From Escherichia phage MiataMamis, in sequence record PP925834.1: a stretch of 64,000 bases of DNA; one strand, 5' to 3'. This document shows positions 5,683-10,632 of the stretch, piece after piece. The translations under genes were made by a program, and so were the position numbers. A model generated the notes under the pieces. The model had not been told where the DNA came from. It ran no database searches and saw only the letters and a program-made list of their open reading frames with translations. Within the stretch, counting starts at the first letter, position 1; every line of letters begins with the position of its first letter.

Positions 5683-5726
5683 TTTACTTTATTGATGGCC
5701 CTGGTGTCAAGGCCATCTAAAAATAA
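5683..5726 (-). promoter_or_regulatory. hairpin-promoter element copy 1 (TTGACA inside palindrome GATGGCC-N10-GGCCATC, then TAAATT)
   Basis: 44-bp element TTTACTTTATTGATGGCCCTGGTGTCAAGGCCATCTAAAAATAA, near-identical at three sites; sits between the stop of 5729..5998 and the start of 5340..5645. Confidence 0.55.
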
Positions 5727-5728
5727 AT

Positions 5729-5929
5729 TTATAAGCCTACAATCTCTTTGATTCGTCTAACTGCTGCCTCAGCGCCTTGAGGATAGAAATTATGGTAACC
5801 AATCACGCGAGTGATACTAATAGCCGCTTGATGATCTTCATAATCGCCTTTGAAGATTTCTTGACCATCAACCAGAACAGCCAGCTTTTCATCTTTTTTG
5901 AAGTTGATAACGCGGATATTCTTGCTCAT
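5729..5929 (-). CDS. hypothetical protein (66 aa; ORF-track ORF 5729..5998 trimmed to internal ATG)
   Basis: Internal ATG at 5929 preceded by SD GGAGAAAG. Confidence 0.5.
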   Translation of the reverse strand: MSKNIRVINFKKDEKLAVLVDGQEIFKGDYEDHQAAISITRVIGYHNFYPQGAEAAVRRIKEIVGL

Positions 5930-6191
5930 TTTTCTTTCTCCTTTCCAGGTCTTTGTTTGTGTAGTGGGGATGTCTCCCCGTTGATTGTTATTATCCACAT
6001 TGCGGACCGGATTGCAACATCCTGGAAGAAAAATTTTTGAAAAAGTTAAGCCCCCATGATCGGGGGCCGTTATCAGTTACTTACAGCTATAAAGTACATT
6101 CCCACGCCTAGCAATATTTCAAGGGCGATGATCTCCAGCCATACTATAACATGTTGCACCTTGCCGCCAGGCTTAGGCTTATCCTTGGTTG

Positions 6192-6455
6192 TCATCGTCT
6201 CCCCCTTTCATTTTGTTGGTGATGACGTGATTTGCAATGGCCCCCAGGAGGCCTATCACTACGCACATTGCGAGAAAAATTATTTCTACCGTTGTCCGAT
6301 CCATTGTTATAAAATTCCTCAAGGTCAGGTTTGAAAATAAACTCTTCGGTGTCGAATCCATCACGCCAGGCGGCTGGCTTCAGATCTTTACTAAAGGGAT
6401 TAATTAGCGCGGCATTGTTGAGACGGTTAGCCCACATATTTTCTATTTCTCTCAA
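6192..6455 (-). CDS. hypothetical protein (87 aa; C-terminal third of uncertain frame)
   Basis: N-terminal 55 aa look protein-like, C-terminus is low-complexity basic; overlaps an alternative 41-aa membrane-peptide ORF (6179..6304, SD GAGGAAT) in another frame. Confidence 0.4.
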   Translation of the reverse strand: MREIENMWANRLNNAALINPFSKDLKPAAWRDGFDTEEFIFKPDLEEFYNNGSDNGRNNFSRNVRSDRPPGGHCKSRHHQQNERGRR

Positions 6456-6786
6456 ATAAGCGATCCGCTTCAGTTAAACATATTTCATGGGCCTGATCTC
6501 TGGTTTTAGCCTCATCAAAAACTTGTTGTGCCAGGCTGCAGCGCAAGGAGACTGGAAGATCGCTATAATAGGCATTAACAAAAGTTTGTGCGTCATACAA
6601 GTCTGAAAATACTTTACCCTTTCTATTATTGCCCTTGTCAACAATTGCAAGGATGACCAGTATAATAGTTGCAACCACTCCCAGGAAAATAGATATAACA
6701 AACCATAAGAAAGCTGACCTGCCTATCTTGCCAGCGATCCAGGCGTTAAACAAGGCAACTAATACAGCTAAAATAATAAATTCCAT
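6427..6786 (-). CDS. small membrane protein, two predicted TM helices (ORF-track ORF 6427..6819 trimmed)
   Basis: Hydrophobic segments EFIILAVLVALFNAWIAG and FLWFVISIFLGVVATIILVILAIV; internal ATG at 6786 with SD. Confidence 0.5.
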   Translation of the reverse strand: MEFIILAVLVALFNAWIAGKIGRSAFLWFVISIFLGVVATIILVILAIVDKGNNRKGKVFSDLYDAQTFVNAYYSDLPVSLRCSLAQQVFDEAKTRDQAHEICLTEADRLFERNRKYVG

Positions 6787-6850
6787 TCTATGTACCTCTC
6801 TTACATTTCTACTTAACAATAAGGCGGCAAATATGCCGCCTGTTGCCTGG

Positions 6851-7231
6851 TTAAAAGTTATCGCCGTAAATTTTACCGCTTTCTACCCATACCACAACAC
6901 GCGGCATATTATCCCATACATCTTGTTTTAGATTGAGGGCGTGCAATTCTTCGGTGGTGCTCATACCTGGCACGGGTTGATTGTATACTGCAAAACGACC
7001 GCCTGCATAATCATAAGCCAGAGTTAAATCACACTGGATCATCTTTTTGATCATGGCGTTAAGCATAGCGGTAGCCGCATGCTGGTCACGTTTTAAAGGT
7101 AACGCTTTAATCAGTTTGCGATAGTTTTCGATATGGTCGCACACTGTTTCACGTGGAAGATCTTTCATATCTTCACGGAAGGTAACCAGGTTAAACATAA
7201 CAGTGTCAATAGCTTTCGTGGTGTTTTTCAT
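6851..7231 (-). CDS. hypothetical protein (126 aa)
   Basis: ORF-track ORF in minus-strand series. Confidence 0.6.
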   Translation of the reverse strand: MKNTTKAIDTVMFNLVTFREDMKDLPRETVCDHIENYRKLIKALPLKRDQHAATAMLNAMIKKMIQCDLTLAYDYAGGRFAVYNQPVPGMSTTEELHALNLKQDVWDNMPRVVVWVESGKIYGDNF

Positions 7232-7321
7232 AATGTTATCCTCTTCGTTTTGTGTGGGGGCAAACGTCTTGCCCCCTTGAGTTTTAATATAGCACGTTTT
7301 TAGATTATTGCAACACTTTAC

Positions 7322-7945
7322 TTATGAAAAACTCATCTCGCCAGATTCATCGACATCAAACCGCCAGTCGTTGGCCTGGATGAGGCCGATCAAGTTCTCT
7401 GCCGTGAACTGTTCAAGATATGCCTCTTCAAGGCTTGCGTAAACCTTGCAAGATAGCTCCCGCACCGTCTCGGTGATCAACTCTTCCAGCTCTTCCACTT
7501 TGTCTTCTTGTTTGGCGGTCAGATCCAGCCAGGTAGCATCAATATACCCGTTGATAGTATTTTCGTGACTATAGCGGCTGTATGCGTCACGTTCAACACT
7601 GGCTGATAGCTCGCCATCATGCATTGTTCCGAACAAGTGACGGATTGAGCGGAACTTAGTCAGCGCCTTGACTTTACGCAGGAATTTTTCCAGATCTACA
7701 TTTTCAGCGCTAATTGATGCACCGTCGCCCTGACACCAAAAGCCGGACCAATGTACTTCAGTATCTTCAAGGCCATACTCTGGAAAAACATATTCTTTAT
7801 AGTATTCAATTACACTTTCTGCGAAAAAGTTATCACCGCTATTTTCTTCCCTTTCGCGGACCATTTCAACGGCTTTTTCTTTTTGTTCGTCGGTCAGCAC
7901 GTCGAAAGATAAATTGTAACCTGCAGTAATGTTAACGGTAGTCAT
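7322..7945 (-). CDS. hypothetical acidic protein (207 aa)
   Basis: ORF-track ORF; SD GGAGAAAA upstream; preceded by TTGACA-16-TATACT promoter. Confidence 0.65.
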   Translation of the reverse strand: MTTVNITAGYNLSFDVLTDEQKEKAVEMVREREENSGDNFFAESVIEYYKEYVFPEYGLEDTEVHWSGFWCQGDGASISAENVDLEKFLRKVKALTKFRSIRHLFGTMHDGELSASVERDAYSRYSHENTINGYIDATWLDLTAKQEDKVEELEELITETVRELSCKVYASLEEAYLEQFTAENLIGLIQANDWRFDVDESGEMSFS

Positions 7946-8001
7946 GATATTTTCTCCTGTTTTCTTTTAAGTGGTGGGAATTGTTCCCGCCTATGTGGTT
8001 A

Positions 8002-8029
8002 AGTATACTTGTTTAATCTTACTTGTCAA
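8002..8029 (-). promoter_or_regulatory. sigma70-type promoter TTGACA-16-TATACT
   Basis: Minus-strand -35 at 8024-8029, -10 at 8002-8007; upstream of gene 7322..7945. Confidence 0.55.
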
Positions 8030-9609: not shown

Positions 9610-9685
9610 AGTTCTTTCTCCTTTCATTGTGTTAATAAGTTATCTTTATAGATGGCCCTGTTACCAGGACCACCGAAAAAACAAT

Positions 9686-9931
9686 TTATTTCACAATCCC
9701 CACAAAACAGATCCCACCTTCACCAACATAAGCAATATCGGTAACTTTGTAATTGGTTAAGATTTGTTTATTCAGCTCATTAATAAAATCATCCATAGCT
9801 GCGGTGTAGTTGTCTTCCATATCCAAGGCATAATCCCAGGTATAAACCTTTTTACGTCCGAACCCTTTTACCATGATGCGGGCGCTTTTGGTGTTGGTCG
9901 GTGCATAGTATTTGGTGATTAATGCTGCCAT
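9686..9931 (-). CDS. hypothetical protein (81 aa)
   Basis: ORF-track ORF; downstream of hairpin-promoter element copy 2. Confidence 0.6.
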   Translation of the reverse strand: MAALITKYYAPTNTKSARIMVKGFGRKKVYTWDYALDMEDNYTAAMDDFINELNKQILTNYKVTDIAYVGEGGICFVGIVK

Positions 9932-9968
9932 GATTTTAACTCCTCTGTAAGTGTTAACAGTTTTTTAG

Positions 9969-10012
9969 TTTACTTTATTGATGGCCCTGGTGTCAAGGCC
10001 ATCTAAAAATAA
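9969..10012 (-). promoter_or_regulatory. hairpin-promoter element copy 2 (TTGACA-18-TAAACT with embedded palindrome)
   Basis: Identical to copy 1 over 44 bp; upstream of gene 9686..9931. Confidence 0.55.
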
Positions 10013-10014
10013 GC

Positions 10015-10356
10015 TTACTCGTTTTCTTCCAGCTCTGTAAGCTCTTCTTTCACTTCCTCAAGCTCTGTCTGCAATTCCTGGTATTCTTCATCGTCCTCAA
10101 TATCCAGGCTGTCGATGTAGTCGCTAAATCCGCAGCGGTAAGCGATAGGATCTAGCTCCTTGAGGATACGCGACGGAAGAAAAGAAATGTTTCCGATCAT
10201 AATTTCGCCGTAGATCTCGTCTAACCATTCATCATAGTTTTCGTCGTACTTGTCCTCGTCGATTTCAAAGTTATCGATCTTATTCTCAAGGTCTGCGATC
10301 TGTTTTTTCAGCGCGGCGATCTGCATGGCTTTTTCTGCGGCGGTCATAGTAGTCAT
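10015..10356 (-). CDS. acidic coiled-coil protein (113 aa)
   Basis: ORF-track ORF; SD AAAAGGAGAAAA upstream; Glu/Asp-rich heptad-like sequence. Confidence 0.6.
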   Translation of the reverse strand: MTTMTAAEKAMQIAALKKQIADLENKIDNFEIDEDKYDENYDEWLDEIYGEIMIGNISFLPSRILKELDPIAYRCGFSDYIDSLDIEDDEEYQELQTELEEVKEELTELEENE

Positions 10357-10406
10357 GGTGTTTTCTCCTTTTGTGTGTTCTGGGAAGTTTTCCCGTTGAT
10401 GTGCTT

Positions 10407-10434
10407 AGTATATCGATCTAAGTTAGCTTGTCAA
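10407..10434 (-). promoter_or_regulatory. sigma70-type promoter TTGACA-16-TATACT
   Basis: Minus-strand -35 at 10429-10434, -10 at 10407-10412; upstream of gene 10015..10356. Confidence 0.55.
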
Positions 10435-10554
10435 TTAAAAATTTAAGAAAAATTTTGCAAAACTGTTAGCGCTACTCATCAACATTTGCGCCAGGATGTA
10501 CCCAATGATGCAAACGATGATGGTTACCTTTGTGTGCTGGCGTGTGGTGCTCAT
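10435..10554 (-). CDS. putative 39-aa hydrophobic membrane peptide
   Basis: Hand translation MSTTRQHTKVTIIVCIIGYILAQMLMSSANSFAKFFLNF; SD AAAGGAGG; downstream of hairpin-promoter element copy 3. Confidence 0.35.
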   Translation of the reverse strand: MSTTRQHTKVTIIVCIIGYILAQMLMSSANSFAKFFLNF

Positions 10555-10588
10555 CTTCAAGCCTCCTTTTTAGCTTAACTGGGATTAG

Positions 10589-10632
10589 TTTACTTTATTG
10601 ATGGCCCTGGCGTCAAGGCCATCTAAAAATAA
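10589..10632 (-). promoter_or_regulatory. hairpin-promoter element copy 3
   Basis: 44-bp element with one substitution (T to C in the loop); upstream of the 39-aa peptide gene 10435..10554. Confidence 0.55.

What the first reader, a model, noticed from the sequence alone, without database searches (positions are those of the whole stretch)
5683..10632. Three near-identical 44-bp promoter elements with a palindrome overlapping the -35 hexamer
TTTACTTTATTGATGGCCCTGG(T/C)GTCAAGGCCATCTAAAAATAA recurs at 5683-5726, 9969-10012 and 10589-10632, each directly after a gene stop and upstream of the next gene. On the transcribed strand it reads as GATGGCC-TTGACACCAG-GGCCATC, then an 18-nt spacer and TAAA(T/C)T. 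The -35 hexamer is embedded in a perfect 7-bp-arm palindrome, suggesting co-regulation of three early genes by one dimeric factor, or an RNA hairpin in read-through transcripts.
Basis: seen in the sequence. Interest (0 to 1): 0.5.

Follow-up and report, generated by a model that had tools for sequence, protein, structure and literature searches.

The report
Repeated promoter-hairpin cassette in rV5-like phages
Three near-identical 44-bp repeats (plus a fourth, decayed copy) between early genes of an rV5-like E. coli phage each encode a conserved RNA hairpin; three also look like host-type promoters, and related phages have repeatedly lost or swapped small gene cassettes at them.

Summary
The three copies sit exactly where stated, and none is expected by chance.

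The window is the early region of a Vequintavirus (rV5-like coliphage), with genes on the minus strand. The repeats are conserved at the same sites in about 120 related genomes.

The "7-bp palindrome" is really the top of a ~50-nt hairpin in the sense-strand RNA. It has a 10-bp G/C helix with a tetraloop, a 2x3 internal loop and an A/U lower helix. Across 42 distinct sequences, 98.5% of pair cells are paired. All six substitutions in the upper helix keep pairing, five through G.U. Four lower-helix pairs show compensatory changes. The antisense strand pairs worse.

TTGAC is invariant in the three canonical copies, including two loop bases. It is absent from the fourth copy. So a sigma-70 promoter is probably superimposed on three copies. 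This is unverified.

There is no U-tract, so the element is not an intrinsic terminator.

The copies are recombination points. The 620-bp cassette between copies 2 and 3 was lost at least three times independently. One phage recombined copy 2 with the fourth copy. A phi92-like phage shares a 471-bp module that ends at the element's -10.

The closest analogue is the PeSL of T4-like phages. The dimeric-repressor reading is not supported. Interest is moderate.

The parts
5681..5729 (-). Copy 1, extended hairpin in sense RNA. Upper helix 5694-5717. Predicted -35 TTGACA 5710-5705 and -10 TAAATT 5686-5681. The upstream gene's stop codon is at 5731-5729.
   Evidence: covariance-model hit 5669-5737, 80.9 bits
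9967..10015 (-). Copy 2, extended hairpin. Upper helix 9980-10003. Predicted -35 TTGACA 9996-9991 and -10 TAAACT 9972-9967. The upstream stop codon is at 10017-10015.
   Evidence: covariance-model hit 9955-10023, 80.4 bits. In a 241-nt context the upper helix persists, but the lower helix is replaced by alternative pairing.
10587..10635 (-). Copy 3, extended hairpin. Upper helix 10600-10623. Predicted -35 TTGACG 10616-10611 and -10 TAAACT 10592-10587. The upstream stop codon is at 10637-10635.
   Evidence: covariance-model hit 10576-10643, 84.2 bits
9638..9686 (-). Fourth, degenerate copy. Same hairpin architecture (GGUGGUCCUG-GUAA-CAGGGCCAUC plus an outer A/U helix) but no TTGACA. The stop codon of the 81-aa gene is at 9688-9686.
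   Evidence: -23.5 kcal/mol, z -6.8; 74.1 bits. It is annotated 'terminator' in phage Murica.
5340..5645 (-). 101-aa early gene downstream of copy 1 (PHROG 7366, unknown function)
5729..5932 (-). 67-aa early gene ending at copy 1 (PHROG 12347, unknown function)
9686..9931 (-). 81-aa early gene between copy 2 and the fourth copy. It is deleted in phage 241Ecol014PP by copy 2 x fourth-copy recombination.
9256..9627 (-). 123-aa early gene downstream of the fourth copy (PHROG 12734, unknown function)
10015..10356 (-). 113-aa early gene ending at copy 2. It is part of the 620-bp cassette that several relatives lack. It is shared at 95% nucleotide identity with the phi92-like phage KKE7M.
10435..10560 (-). 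41-aa early gene downstream of copy 3. It is part of the 620-bp cassette.
10635..11030 (-). 131-aa early gene ending at copy 3 (PHROG 13245, unknown function)
10407..10434 (-). Ordinary sigma-70-type early promoter (TTGACA-16-TATACT, the rV5 'P192' type) inside the cassette. It is the other boundary of the module shared with KKE7M.

Best explanation
The repeats are four copies of a ~50-68-bp intercistronic cassette specific to rV5-like phages (genus Vequintavirus). Three copies are intact and one is decayed. Each copy begins at the stop codon of an early gene.

**Shown: RNA hairpin.** In the sense RNA each copy forms a conserved extended hairpin: a U-rich 5' arm and an A-rich 3' arm form a lower helix, then a UA/AAU internal loop, then a 10-bp upper helix GAUGGCCUUG/CAGGGCCAUC with a tetraloop. 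No U-tract follows, so RNA polymerase coming from upstream is expected to read through, and the hairpin ends up in the transcript.

**Inferred: what the hairpin does.** It most likely acts as an RNA processing or stability element. It could protect the 3' end of the upstream cistron, or be bound or cut by a double-strand-specific RNase such as RNase III.

**Inferred from sequence and conservation pattern: promoter.** In the three intact copies the same DNA carries a host sigma-70 promoter. The -35 TTGACA spans the upper helix and loop, the spacer is 18 bp, and the -10 TAAAYT lies in the 3' arm of the lower helix. Transcription would restart for the next gene, and those new transcripts would lack the 5' half of the hairpin.

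**Shown by comparative genomics: recombination.** Because the copies are long direct repeats, they are sites of homologous recombination. This repeatedly removes or exchanges the small gene cassettes between them. In that respect the element behaves like the PeSL promoter/stem-loop cassettes of T4-like phages.
For: **Repeat and context**
- Three exact or near-exact copies, none expected by chance. A fourth copy is present.
- The window is about 88% identical to Vequintavirus genomes, with genes on the minus strand.
- About 120 phage records hold the element, mostly at 3 places each. The only one seen outside the genus is KKE7M.
- It is absent from E. coli genomes and from bacterial genomes. 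No Rfam family matches.

**RNA hairpin**
- Sense-strand folds are -20 to -25 kcal/mol with z -5 to -8. The antisense strand is much weaker.
- In 42 distinct sequences from 21 genomes or contigs, 98.5% of 840 pair cells are paired and the upper helix is 100% paired. Four pairs show compensatory double changes: 10-56 GC/AU/GU, 11-55 UA/CG, 13-53, and 14-52 AU/UA. Sliding the partner by 1-3 columns drops pairing to 35-57%.
- There are 113 G.U cells on the sense strand against 10 A.C cells.
- All six upper-helix substitution events keep pairing: three between the canonical and fourth copies, plus FFH2 copy 3, SYGMH1 copy 3 and phiWec189 copy 1.

**Promoter**
- Consensus match of 9-10 out of 12.
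- TTGAC is invariant in 30 distinct canonical sequences, while loop positions 3-4 take 4 and 2 states. The fourth copy's loop varies at 3 of 4 positions and lacks TTGAC.
- PhagePromoter calls copies 1 and 2 promoters in Gotham.

**Recombination**
- ime, ECP26, ECP32, phiWec189 and an IMG/VR contig each carry a single hybrid element: the 5' flank of copy 3 joined to the 3' flank of copy 2. They lack the 620-bp cassette.
- These genomes are polyphyletic on both flanks, and their nearest neighbours carry the cassette.
- 241Ecol014PP has a copy 2 / fourth-copy hybrid and lacks the 81-aa gene.
- KKE7M (Justusliebigvirus) shares 471 nt at 95% identity. That stretch ends at the element's -10 on one side and at the P192 -35 on the other.
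Against: - There are no transcription start-site or RNA-end data for any rV5-like phage. Both promoter activity and any RNA processing are therefore unverified.
- The 18-nt spacer and 4/6 -10 hexamer are weaker than this phage's other predicted early promoters. The rV5 paper does not list these sites.
- The lower A/U helix is thermodynamically marginal. For copy 2 in a 241-nt context it is replaced by other pairing.
- The covariation rests on few independent events among related sequences, so the shuffle statistics overstate significance.
- The G-C pair next to the internal loop may be a catalytic antideterminant for E. coli RNase III (PMC1540722).
- Only four copies exist per genome, so any recombination "function" may be a by-product of repetition.
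- The rV5_ev146 deletions in the same region do not use the elements.
Confidence: 0.6

Rival explanations
1. Operator model. The palindrome GATGGCC-N10-GGCCATC over the -35 is the binding site of a dimeric phage or host repressor that co-regulates three early promoters.
For: Perfect 7-bp arms centred on the -35 region in three copies, invariant in nearly all genomes sampled. A protein bound there would occlude sigma region 4 (established knowledge of sigma-70 promoters).
Against: - The fourth copy keeps the helix but has two transitions in one arm only (GGTGGTC against GGCCATC). These break DNA symmetry yet keep RNA pairing. It has no -35 to regulate.
- Other one-sided changes (FFH2 C->T, SYGMH1 and phiWec189 C->T) are also G.U-compatible.
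- Pairing extends to 10 bp through a U.G pair and continues into a covarying outer helix. A 7-bp half-site model does not explain this.
- Flanking genes have no recognisable DNA-binding domain. Only 7 proteins were checked.
Confidence: 0.1
2. RNA hairpin only. The elements are purely intercistronic RNA structures, and the TTGACA/TAAAYT hexamers are fortuitous or vestigial. The downstream genes are expressed by read-through.
For: - The fourth copy has the structure without TTGACA.
- The spacer is 18 nt, whereas most other TTGACA promoters predicted in the region have 16-17 nt.
- Natural variants keep the hairpin while changing promoter geometry. L025 copy 3 has TTGATA and a longer spacer. SYGMH1 copy 1 has +1 nt in the spacer.
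- The A-rich 3' arm will often contain a TAnnnT by chance.
Against: - TTGAC is invariant in 30 distinct canonical sequences, including two unpaired loop bases, while adjacent loop bases vary.
- The canonical copies keep a weaker U.G pair where the fourth copy has C-G, which is what a requirement for TTG predicts.
- The 241Ecol014PP recombinant joins TTGACA to GATAAT at 17 nt.
Confidence: 0.2
3. Intrinsic transcription terminator, as copy 1 and the fourth copy are annotated in the phage Murica record.
For: A stable G/C-rich hairpin directly after a stop codon. Murica annotates 45-nt 'terminator' features at these two sites.
Against: - On either strand the hairpin is preceded by the T-run and followed by an A-rich tract (AAUAAAGUAAA). 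No U-tract follows it.
- The terminator scan does not report it.
- The HdK5 and rV5 annotations, which list terminators, omit it.
Confidence: 0.05
4. Selfish mobile repeat (MITE-like or homing-associated) that inserted between genes.
For: Near-identical copies at several intergenic sites. One copy, with its adjacent gene, is present in a phage of another subfamily.
Against: - Only four copies, at fixed orthologous sites in all genomes sampled.
- No target-site duplications or associated nuclease or transposase. The upstream stop codon sits in a fixed register.
- No copies elsewhere in the 64-kb window, in the E. coli genomes searched or in the other bacterial genomes scanned for the core motif.
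Confidence: 0.03

Closest known systems
PeSLs (promoter-early stem-loops) of T4-like phages (Arbiol et al. 2010, PMC2839356; Comeau et al. 2014, PMC4122927)
   Same: - Short repeated intergenic cassettes in a region of small early ORFs of unknown function.
- An AT-rich segment, a sigma-70-like promoter and a stem-loop, followed by a Shine-Dalgarno sequence and ATG.
- Degraded copies occur.
- Copies flank indels between close relatives, and recombination between tandem copies deletes the DNA in between.
   Different: - Here the stem-loop overlaps the -35 and the whole promoter lies inside an extended hairpin. In PeSLs the stem-loop sits just upstream.
- There is no U-tract, so the hairpin is unlikely to terminate. 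PeSL stem-loops are described as effective terminators.
- Only 4 copies per genome, against dozens.
- The host phage is a Vequintavirus, not a T4-like phage.
- Mini-circles were not tested.
RNase III processing signals between early genes of phage T7 (for example R1.1; Pertzev and Nicholson 2006, PMC1540722)
   Same: - Intercistronic position in early mRNA.
- About two helical turns of duplex interrupted by an asymmetric internal loop. In T7 this architecture gives a single cut and leaves a protective 3' hairpin.
   Different: - No sequence relationship.
- The lower helix is A/U-rich and marginal.
- A G-C pair abuts the internal loop, which may inhibit catalysis.
- Cleavage is untested.
- I know of no T7 RNase III site with a host promoter embedded in it (own knowledge, not checked here).
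Ordinary sigma-70-type early promoters of rV5 and relatives (Kropinski et al. 2013, PMC3606486; Certrevirus CB7, PMC7344957)
   Same: TTGACA -35, AT-rich upstream region, location in front of small early genes.
   Different: - These three have an 18-nt spacer and a TAAAYT -10.
- They are near-identical over more than 44 bp.
- They are embedded in a conserved hairpin.
- They are not in the published rV5 promoter list.
Promoter plus 5'-UTR hairpin cassettes of the phi92-like phage KKE7M (seen here, L010)
   Same: Repeated promoter/stem-loop units in front of small early genes of a large coliphage: at least 8 copies of a TTGACA promoter followed by GGCGGGAAAUGGUUUCCCGCC.
   Different: The hairpin lies downstream of the promoter, in the 5' UTR. 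The sequence is unrelated.

Membership tests
PeSL (T4-type promoter-early stem-loop) | Sigma-70-like early promoter with an AT-rich upstream segment, followed by the Shine-Dalgarno sequence and start codon of the next gene | tested here: met
   TTGACA/TTGACG, 18 nt, TAAAYT. TTATTTTTA lies upstream. GGAG-type Shine-Dalgarno and ATG lie 35-45 nt downstream. Tested at sequence level only.
PeSL (T4-type promoter-early stem-loop) | Stem-loop located just upstream of the promoter and acting as a transcription terminator | tested here: not met
   The stem-loop overlaps the -35 and encloses the whole promoter. No U-tract follows it.
PeSL (T4-type promoter-early stem-loop) | Copies flank indels or replacements between closely related phages; recombination between copies removes the DNA in between | tested here: met
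   Hybrid copy 3/copy 2 elements in ime, ECP26, ECP32, phiWec189 and L005. These are polyphyletic, so at least 3 events. A copy 2/fourth-copy hybrid occurs in 241Ecol014PP. A module boundary occurs in KKE7M.
PeSL (T4-type promoter-early stem-loop) | Many copies spread through hyperplastic regions of a T4-like genome | tested here: not met
   Four copies in the 64-kb window and 3 BLAST places per genome. The genome is a Vequintavirus.
PeSL (T4-type promoter-early stem-loop) | Excised mini-circles | not testable with these tools
   Needs PCR or sequencing of lysates.
E. coli sigma-70 promoter | -35 and -10 hexamers at 17 +/- 1 bp | tested here: met
   10/12, 10/12 and 9/12 matches with an 18-nt spacer.
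E. coli sigma-70 promoter | Transcription start 6-8 nt downstream of the -10 | not testable with these tools
   No transcriptome for rV5-like phages was found.
Intrinsic (Rho-independent) terminator | G/C-rich hairpin immediately followed by a U-tract | tested here: not met
   The hairpin is present, but it is followed by AAUAAAGUAAA. The scan does not list it.
T7-type RNase III processing signal | About two helical turns of dsRNA with an internal loop | tested here: inconclusive
   10 + 8-12 bp with a 2x3 internal loop in the isolated element. The lower helix is lost for copy 2 in a 241-nt context.
T7-type RNase III processing signal | No antideterminant base pairs in the proximal and distal boxes; cleavage by RNase III | not tested
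   A G-C pair next to the internal loop may be a catalytic antideterminant (PMC1540722). The box register could not be assigned. Cleavage needs experiment.
Palindromic operator of a dimeric repressor | Two-fold symmetric half-sites, kept symmetric in evolution | tested here: not met
   Symmetric in the 3 canonical copies. All observed arm changes are one-sided and RNA-compatible.
Palindromic operator of a dimeric repressor | A cognate DNA-binding protein | not tested
   Only the 7 flanking proteins were scanned, and none has a DNA-binding domain.

The most novel reading that the evidence does not exclude
One 50-bp sequence does two jobs. As DNA it is a host-type promoter. As RNA, in transcripts arriving from upstream, it is a processing or stability hairpin. 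Transcripts are then ended or trimmed exactly where new ones start. This would make each small early gene a self-contained, portable expression cassette. The same repeat would then provide the recombination joints by which rV5-like and phi92-like phages gain and lose such cassettes.
Probability: 0.3. Interest if true: 0.55.

Novelty: new variant of a known kind. Interest (0 to 1): 0.4.

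Why it matters
rV5-like phages are widely isolated and used for E. coli O157 biocontrol and phage therapy, yet their early region is almost entirely genes of unknown function with computationally predicted regulation.

- **Annotation.** Public records label these sites inconsistently. Gotham calls them promoters, Murica calls them terminators, and most records leave them unmarked.
- **PeSL idea.** If the reading here is right, composite promoter/stem-loop cassettes that mediate modular shuffling are not confined to T4-like phages. 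This variant has the promoter nested inside the hairpin.
- **Engineering.** The sites are natural, recurrent deletion joints. They are candidate places for removing or inserting genes in these phages.

It is not a new principle. Repeated regulatory cassettes that act as recombination points are already known.

Tried and rejected
- **Deletions in rV5_ev146.** This genome has only one BLAST place, so I checked whether recombination between elements explains it. Its two deletions correspond to window 2360-9124 and 10543-11071. Neither is bounded by element copies.
- **Rfam.** No family reached its threshold in 5000-11500.
- **More family members.** The covariance model found nothing beyond the four copies in the window. 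It also found nothing in 12 metagenome and 17 bacterial-genome loci that matched the core pattern, so those are chance matches.
- **Host origin.** No match in 5,426 complete E. coli genomes.
- **IMG/VR.** Only two rV5-like contigs.
- **Transcriptomics literature.** Nothing found for rV5 or Vequintavirus.
- **Functions of the seven flanking proteins.** All fall in PHROGs of unknown function, with no Pfam hit above cut-off.
- **Terminator reading.** Rejected because there is no U-tract.
- **Mobile-element reading.** Rejected because the copies sit at fixed orthologous positions.

Full report
**1. Observation**

The 24-nt core GATGGCCCTGGYGTCAAGGCCATC occurs exactly three times in the 64-kb window, at 5694-5717, 9980-10003 and 10600-10623.

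A repeat search shows that the similarity extends to about 64 nt. It also finds a fourth copy at 9625-9688 that is 64% identical.

**2. Context**

The window is about 88% identical to Vequintavirus genomes: rV5, FFH2, HdK5, Murica and others. Annotated relatives show that all genes in this stretch are on the minus strand and encode small hypothetical proteins. This is the early region, at roughly 105-120 kb in rV5.

On the minus strand each copy starts 2 nt after a stop codon. The stop codon occupies the same register (alignment columns 7-9) in all four copies. Each copy lies 35-45 nt ahead of the next start codon.

The seven flanking proteins all belong to PHROGs of unknown function.

**3. 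Distribution**

- About 120 phage records contain the element, nearly all with three BLAST places.
- The only record seen outside Vequintavirus is the phi92-like phage KKE7M.
- There is no match in complete E. coli genomes.
- Core-pattern matches in bacterial genomes and in unrelated metagenome contigs are chance. The covariance model built here does not recognise them.
- The model finds only the four copies in the window.
- Rfam has nothing above threshold.

**4. Existing annotation**

- The rV5 paper lists 33 promoters and 20 terminators. It restricted spacers to 15-17 nt and does not list these sites (PMC3606486).
- The Gotham record marks copies 1 and 2 as promoters "predicted by PhagePromoter".
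- The Murica record marks copy 1 and the fourth copy as terminators.
- HdK5, which annotates terminators, leaves them unmarked.
- No transcriptome for this phage group was found.

**5. The palindrome is part of a longer, strand-specific RNA hairpin**

Folding 61 nt of the sense (minus-strand) RNA gives, for every copy:
- a lower A/U helix of 8-12 bp;
- a UA/AAU internal loop;
- a 10-bp upper helix, GAUGGCCUUG/CAGGGCCAUC, which includes one U.G pair;
- a tetraloop.

| Strand | Free energy (kcal/mol) | z-score |
|---|---|---|
| Sense (minus strand) | -20.3 to -24.7 | -5.2 to -8.0 |
| Antisense (plus strand) | -10.3 to -17.0 | -1.5 to -3.7 |

I collected the element from 21 genomes or contigs and aligned 42 distinct sequences. 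For the 20-pair structure:
- 98.5% of 840 cells are standard pairs, and the upper helix is 100% paired.
- Sliding the 3' partners by 1-3 columns gives only 35-57% pairing.
- Four lower-helix pairs change on both sides: 10-56 GC/AU/GU, 11-55 UA/CG, 13-53, and 14-52 AU/UA.
- There are 113 G.U cells on the sense strand and only 10 A.C cells. The same structure on the antisense strand would be 86.2% paired.

Six substitution events can be seen in the upper helix, and all keep pairing:
- A->G, C->U and U->C between the canonical and fourth copies;
- C->U in FFH2 copy 3;
- C->U in SYGMH1 copy 3;
- C->U in phiWec189 copy 1.

Five of the six create G.U pairs. By my rough reckoning, if about one third of random substitutions in a Watson-Crick pair preserve pairing on a given strand, this outcome has a probability of order 0.004. 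This is an inference, not a formal test.

Caveats:
- The sequences are related paralogues and orthologues, so independent events are few.
- The lower helix is weak. For copy 2 in a 241-nt context it is displaced by other pairing, while the upper helix persists.

**6. The hairpin is not an intrinsic terminator**

On both strands the T-run precedes the hairpin and an A-rich tract follows it. The terminator scan does not report it. Transcripts from the upstream promoters, for example the TTGACA-16-TATACT promoter at 10434-10407, should therefore run through and contain the hairpin directly after the stop codon.

**7. Is there also a promoter?**

The hexamers score 10/12, 10/12 and 9/12 with an 18-nt spacer.

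The best evidence is the pattern of variation. In 30 distinct canonical sequences TTGAC never varies, although A and C are unpaired loop bases. The next two loop bases take 4 and 2 states. In the fourth copy the loop varies at three of four positions, TTGAC is absent (CTGGTA), and the U.G pair is replaced by C-G. That is what selection for a -35 element in three copies, laid over a hairpin shared by all four, would give.

Against it:
- The spacer is longer than in this phage's other predicted promoters.
- Some natural variants change the spacing while keeping the hairpin. SYGMH1 copy 1 has +1 nt. The JGI contig's copy 3 has TTGATA and a 5-nt loop.
- In Gotham, copy 3 has lost GGGCC, which destroys both features.

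I rate promoter function at about 0.65-0.7.

**8. Recombination**

*Copy 2 x copy 3.* Phages ime, ECP26, ECP32, phiWec189 and an IMG/VR contig have one element where the window has copies 2 and 3. Its 5' flank is that of copy 3 and its 3' flank is that of copy 2. The 620-bp unit in between is absent. That unit holds the 113-aa gene, an ordinary promoter and the 41-aa gene.

Trees of the 400 nt on either side place these genomes in at least three separate positions. The nearest neighbours in each case carry the cassette: ime with HdK5; ECP26 and ECP32 with S127 BCL3; phiWec189 with rV5 and UADI01. So the event has recurred. My sample was enriched for such genomes. Overall, 16 of the 122 matching records have no single place covering at least 80% of this stretch, and that figure includes partial records.

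*Copy 2 x fourth copy.* Phage 241Ecol014PP has a hybrid of copy 2 and the fourth copy and lacks the 81-aa gene. The hybrid reads TTGACA-17-GATAAT.

*Module shared across subfamilies.* The phi92-like phage KKE7M shares 471 nt at 95% identity with window 9966-10435. The homology stops at the element's -10 on one side and at the -35 of the ordinary promoter on the other.

*Not every deletion uses the elements.* The rV5_ev146 deletions in this region do not.

**9. Mechanism**

Shown:
- the repeat and its conservation;
- the strand-specific hairpin;
- the absence of a terminator tail;
- the recombinant genomes.

Inferred:
- The hairpin acts in read-through early mRNA as a processing or stability element.
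- Three copies restart transcription.

The architecture of two helices and an internal loop recalls T7 RNase III sites. Those are cut once and leave a protective 3' hairpin (PMC1540722). However, a G-C pair next to the internal loop may disfavour cleavage. I give RNase III cleavage specifically only about 0.15-0.2.

Recombination is most simply a consequence of 44-68-bp direct repeats. It need not be a selected function.

**10. Comparison with known systems**

The closest described system is the PeSL of T4-like phages (PMC4122927; PMC2839356). A PeSL is an AT-rich segment, a stem-loop and a sigma-70-like early promoter in front of small ORFs. PeSLs are associated with indels and with deletion of the DNA between tandem copies.

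This element behaves like a PeSL, but it fails two defining features: a stem-loop upstream of the promoter that acts as a terminator, and many copies in a T4-like genome. I therefore file it as a new variant of that kind, not a member.

**11. Verdict**

The promoter is plausible. Interest is moderate: a tidy, previously undescribed regulatory and recombination cassette in a well-studied phage group, and a variation on a known theme.

Noticed in passing
window 12250-13150: A non-coding stretch dense in repeats. It has three 62-nt direct repeats (12559-12759), about five copies of AAATCCATTT[CT][TA]GAAA, and 2-3 copies of AAATGAGAAYGRTTATCATT (12304, 12440, 12469). The last motif also occurs five times in the phi92-like phage KKE7M (L010 352 and 11654-11772). 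From memory it resembles the E. coli Fur box. This may be an origin or a regulatory region.
   Followed up: partly
L010 (KKE7M) 2188-10774: The phi92-like phage has its own repeated early cassette, with at least 8 copies. Each is a TTGACA-type promoter, then a 5'-UTR hairpin GGCGGGAAAUGGUUUCCCGCC, then a Shine-Dalgarno sequence and ATG.
   Followed up: no
window 10383-10434: The ordinary early promoter TTGACA-16-TATACT (rV5 P192 type) is followed by a small hairpin, GGGAAAACUUCCC, in the predicted 5' UTR.
   Followed up: no
phage records MG065635-MG065690: Seventeen unannotated GenBank records named 'Campylobacter phage' (most with host given as C. jejuni) are about 88-90% identical to this E. 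coli rV5-like phage. The host labels look doubtful.
   Followed up: no
L007 (Gotham) 5808-5882; L025 5371-5440; L040 3756-3825: Natural damaged variants of the element. Gotham copy 3 lacks GGGCC of the 3' arm. A JGI contig's copy 3 has a 5-nt loop, TTGATA and altered spacing. A metagenome copy 1 has an extra G in the 3' arm.
   Followed up: partly
L003 (rV5_ev146) versus window 2360-9124 and 10543-11071: This rV5 derivative lacks two blocks of early genes. The deletion ends are not at the repeated elements.
   Followed up: partly
window 10015-10356: The 113-aa early protein in the dispensable cassette has 37-56% identical homologues in Vibrio, Klebsiella, Serratia, Proteus, Providencia and Pseudomonas (PAK_P3-like) phages. 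It is a widespread small phage protein of unknown function.
   Followed up: no
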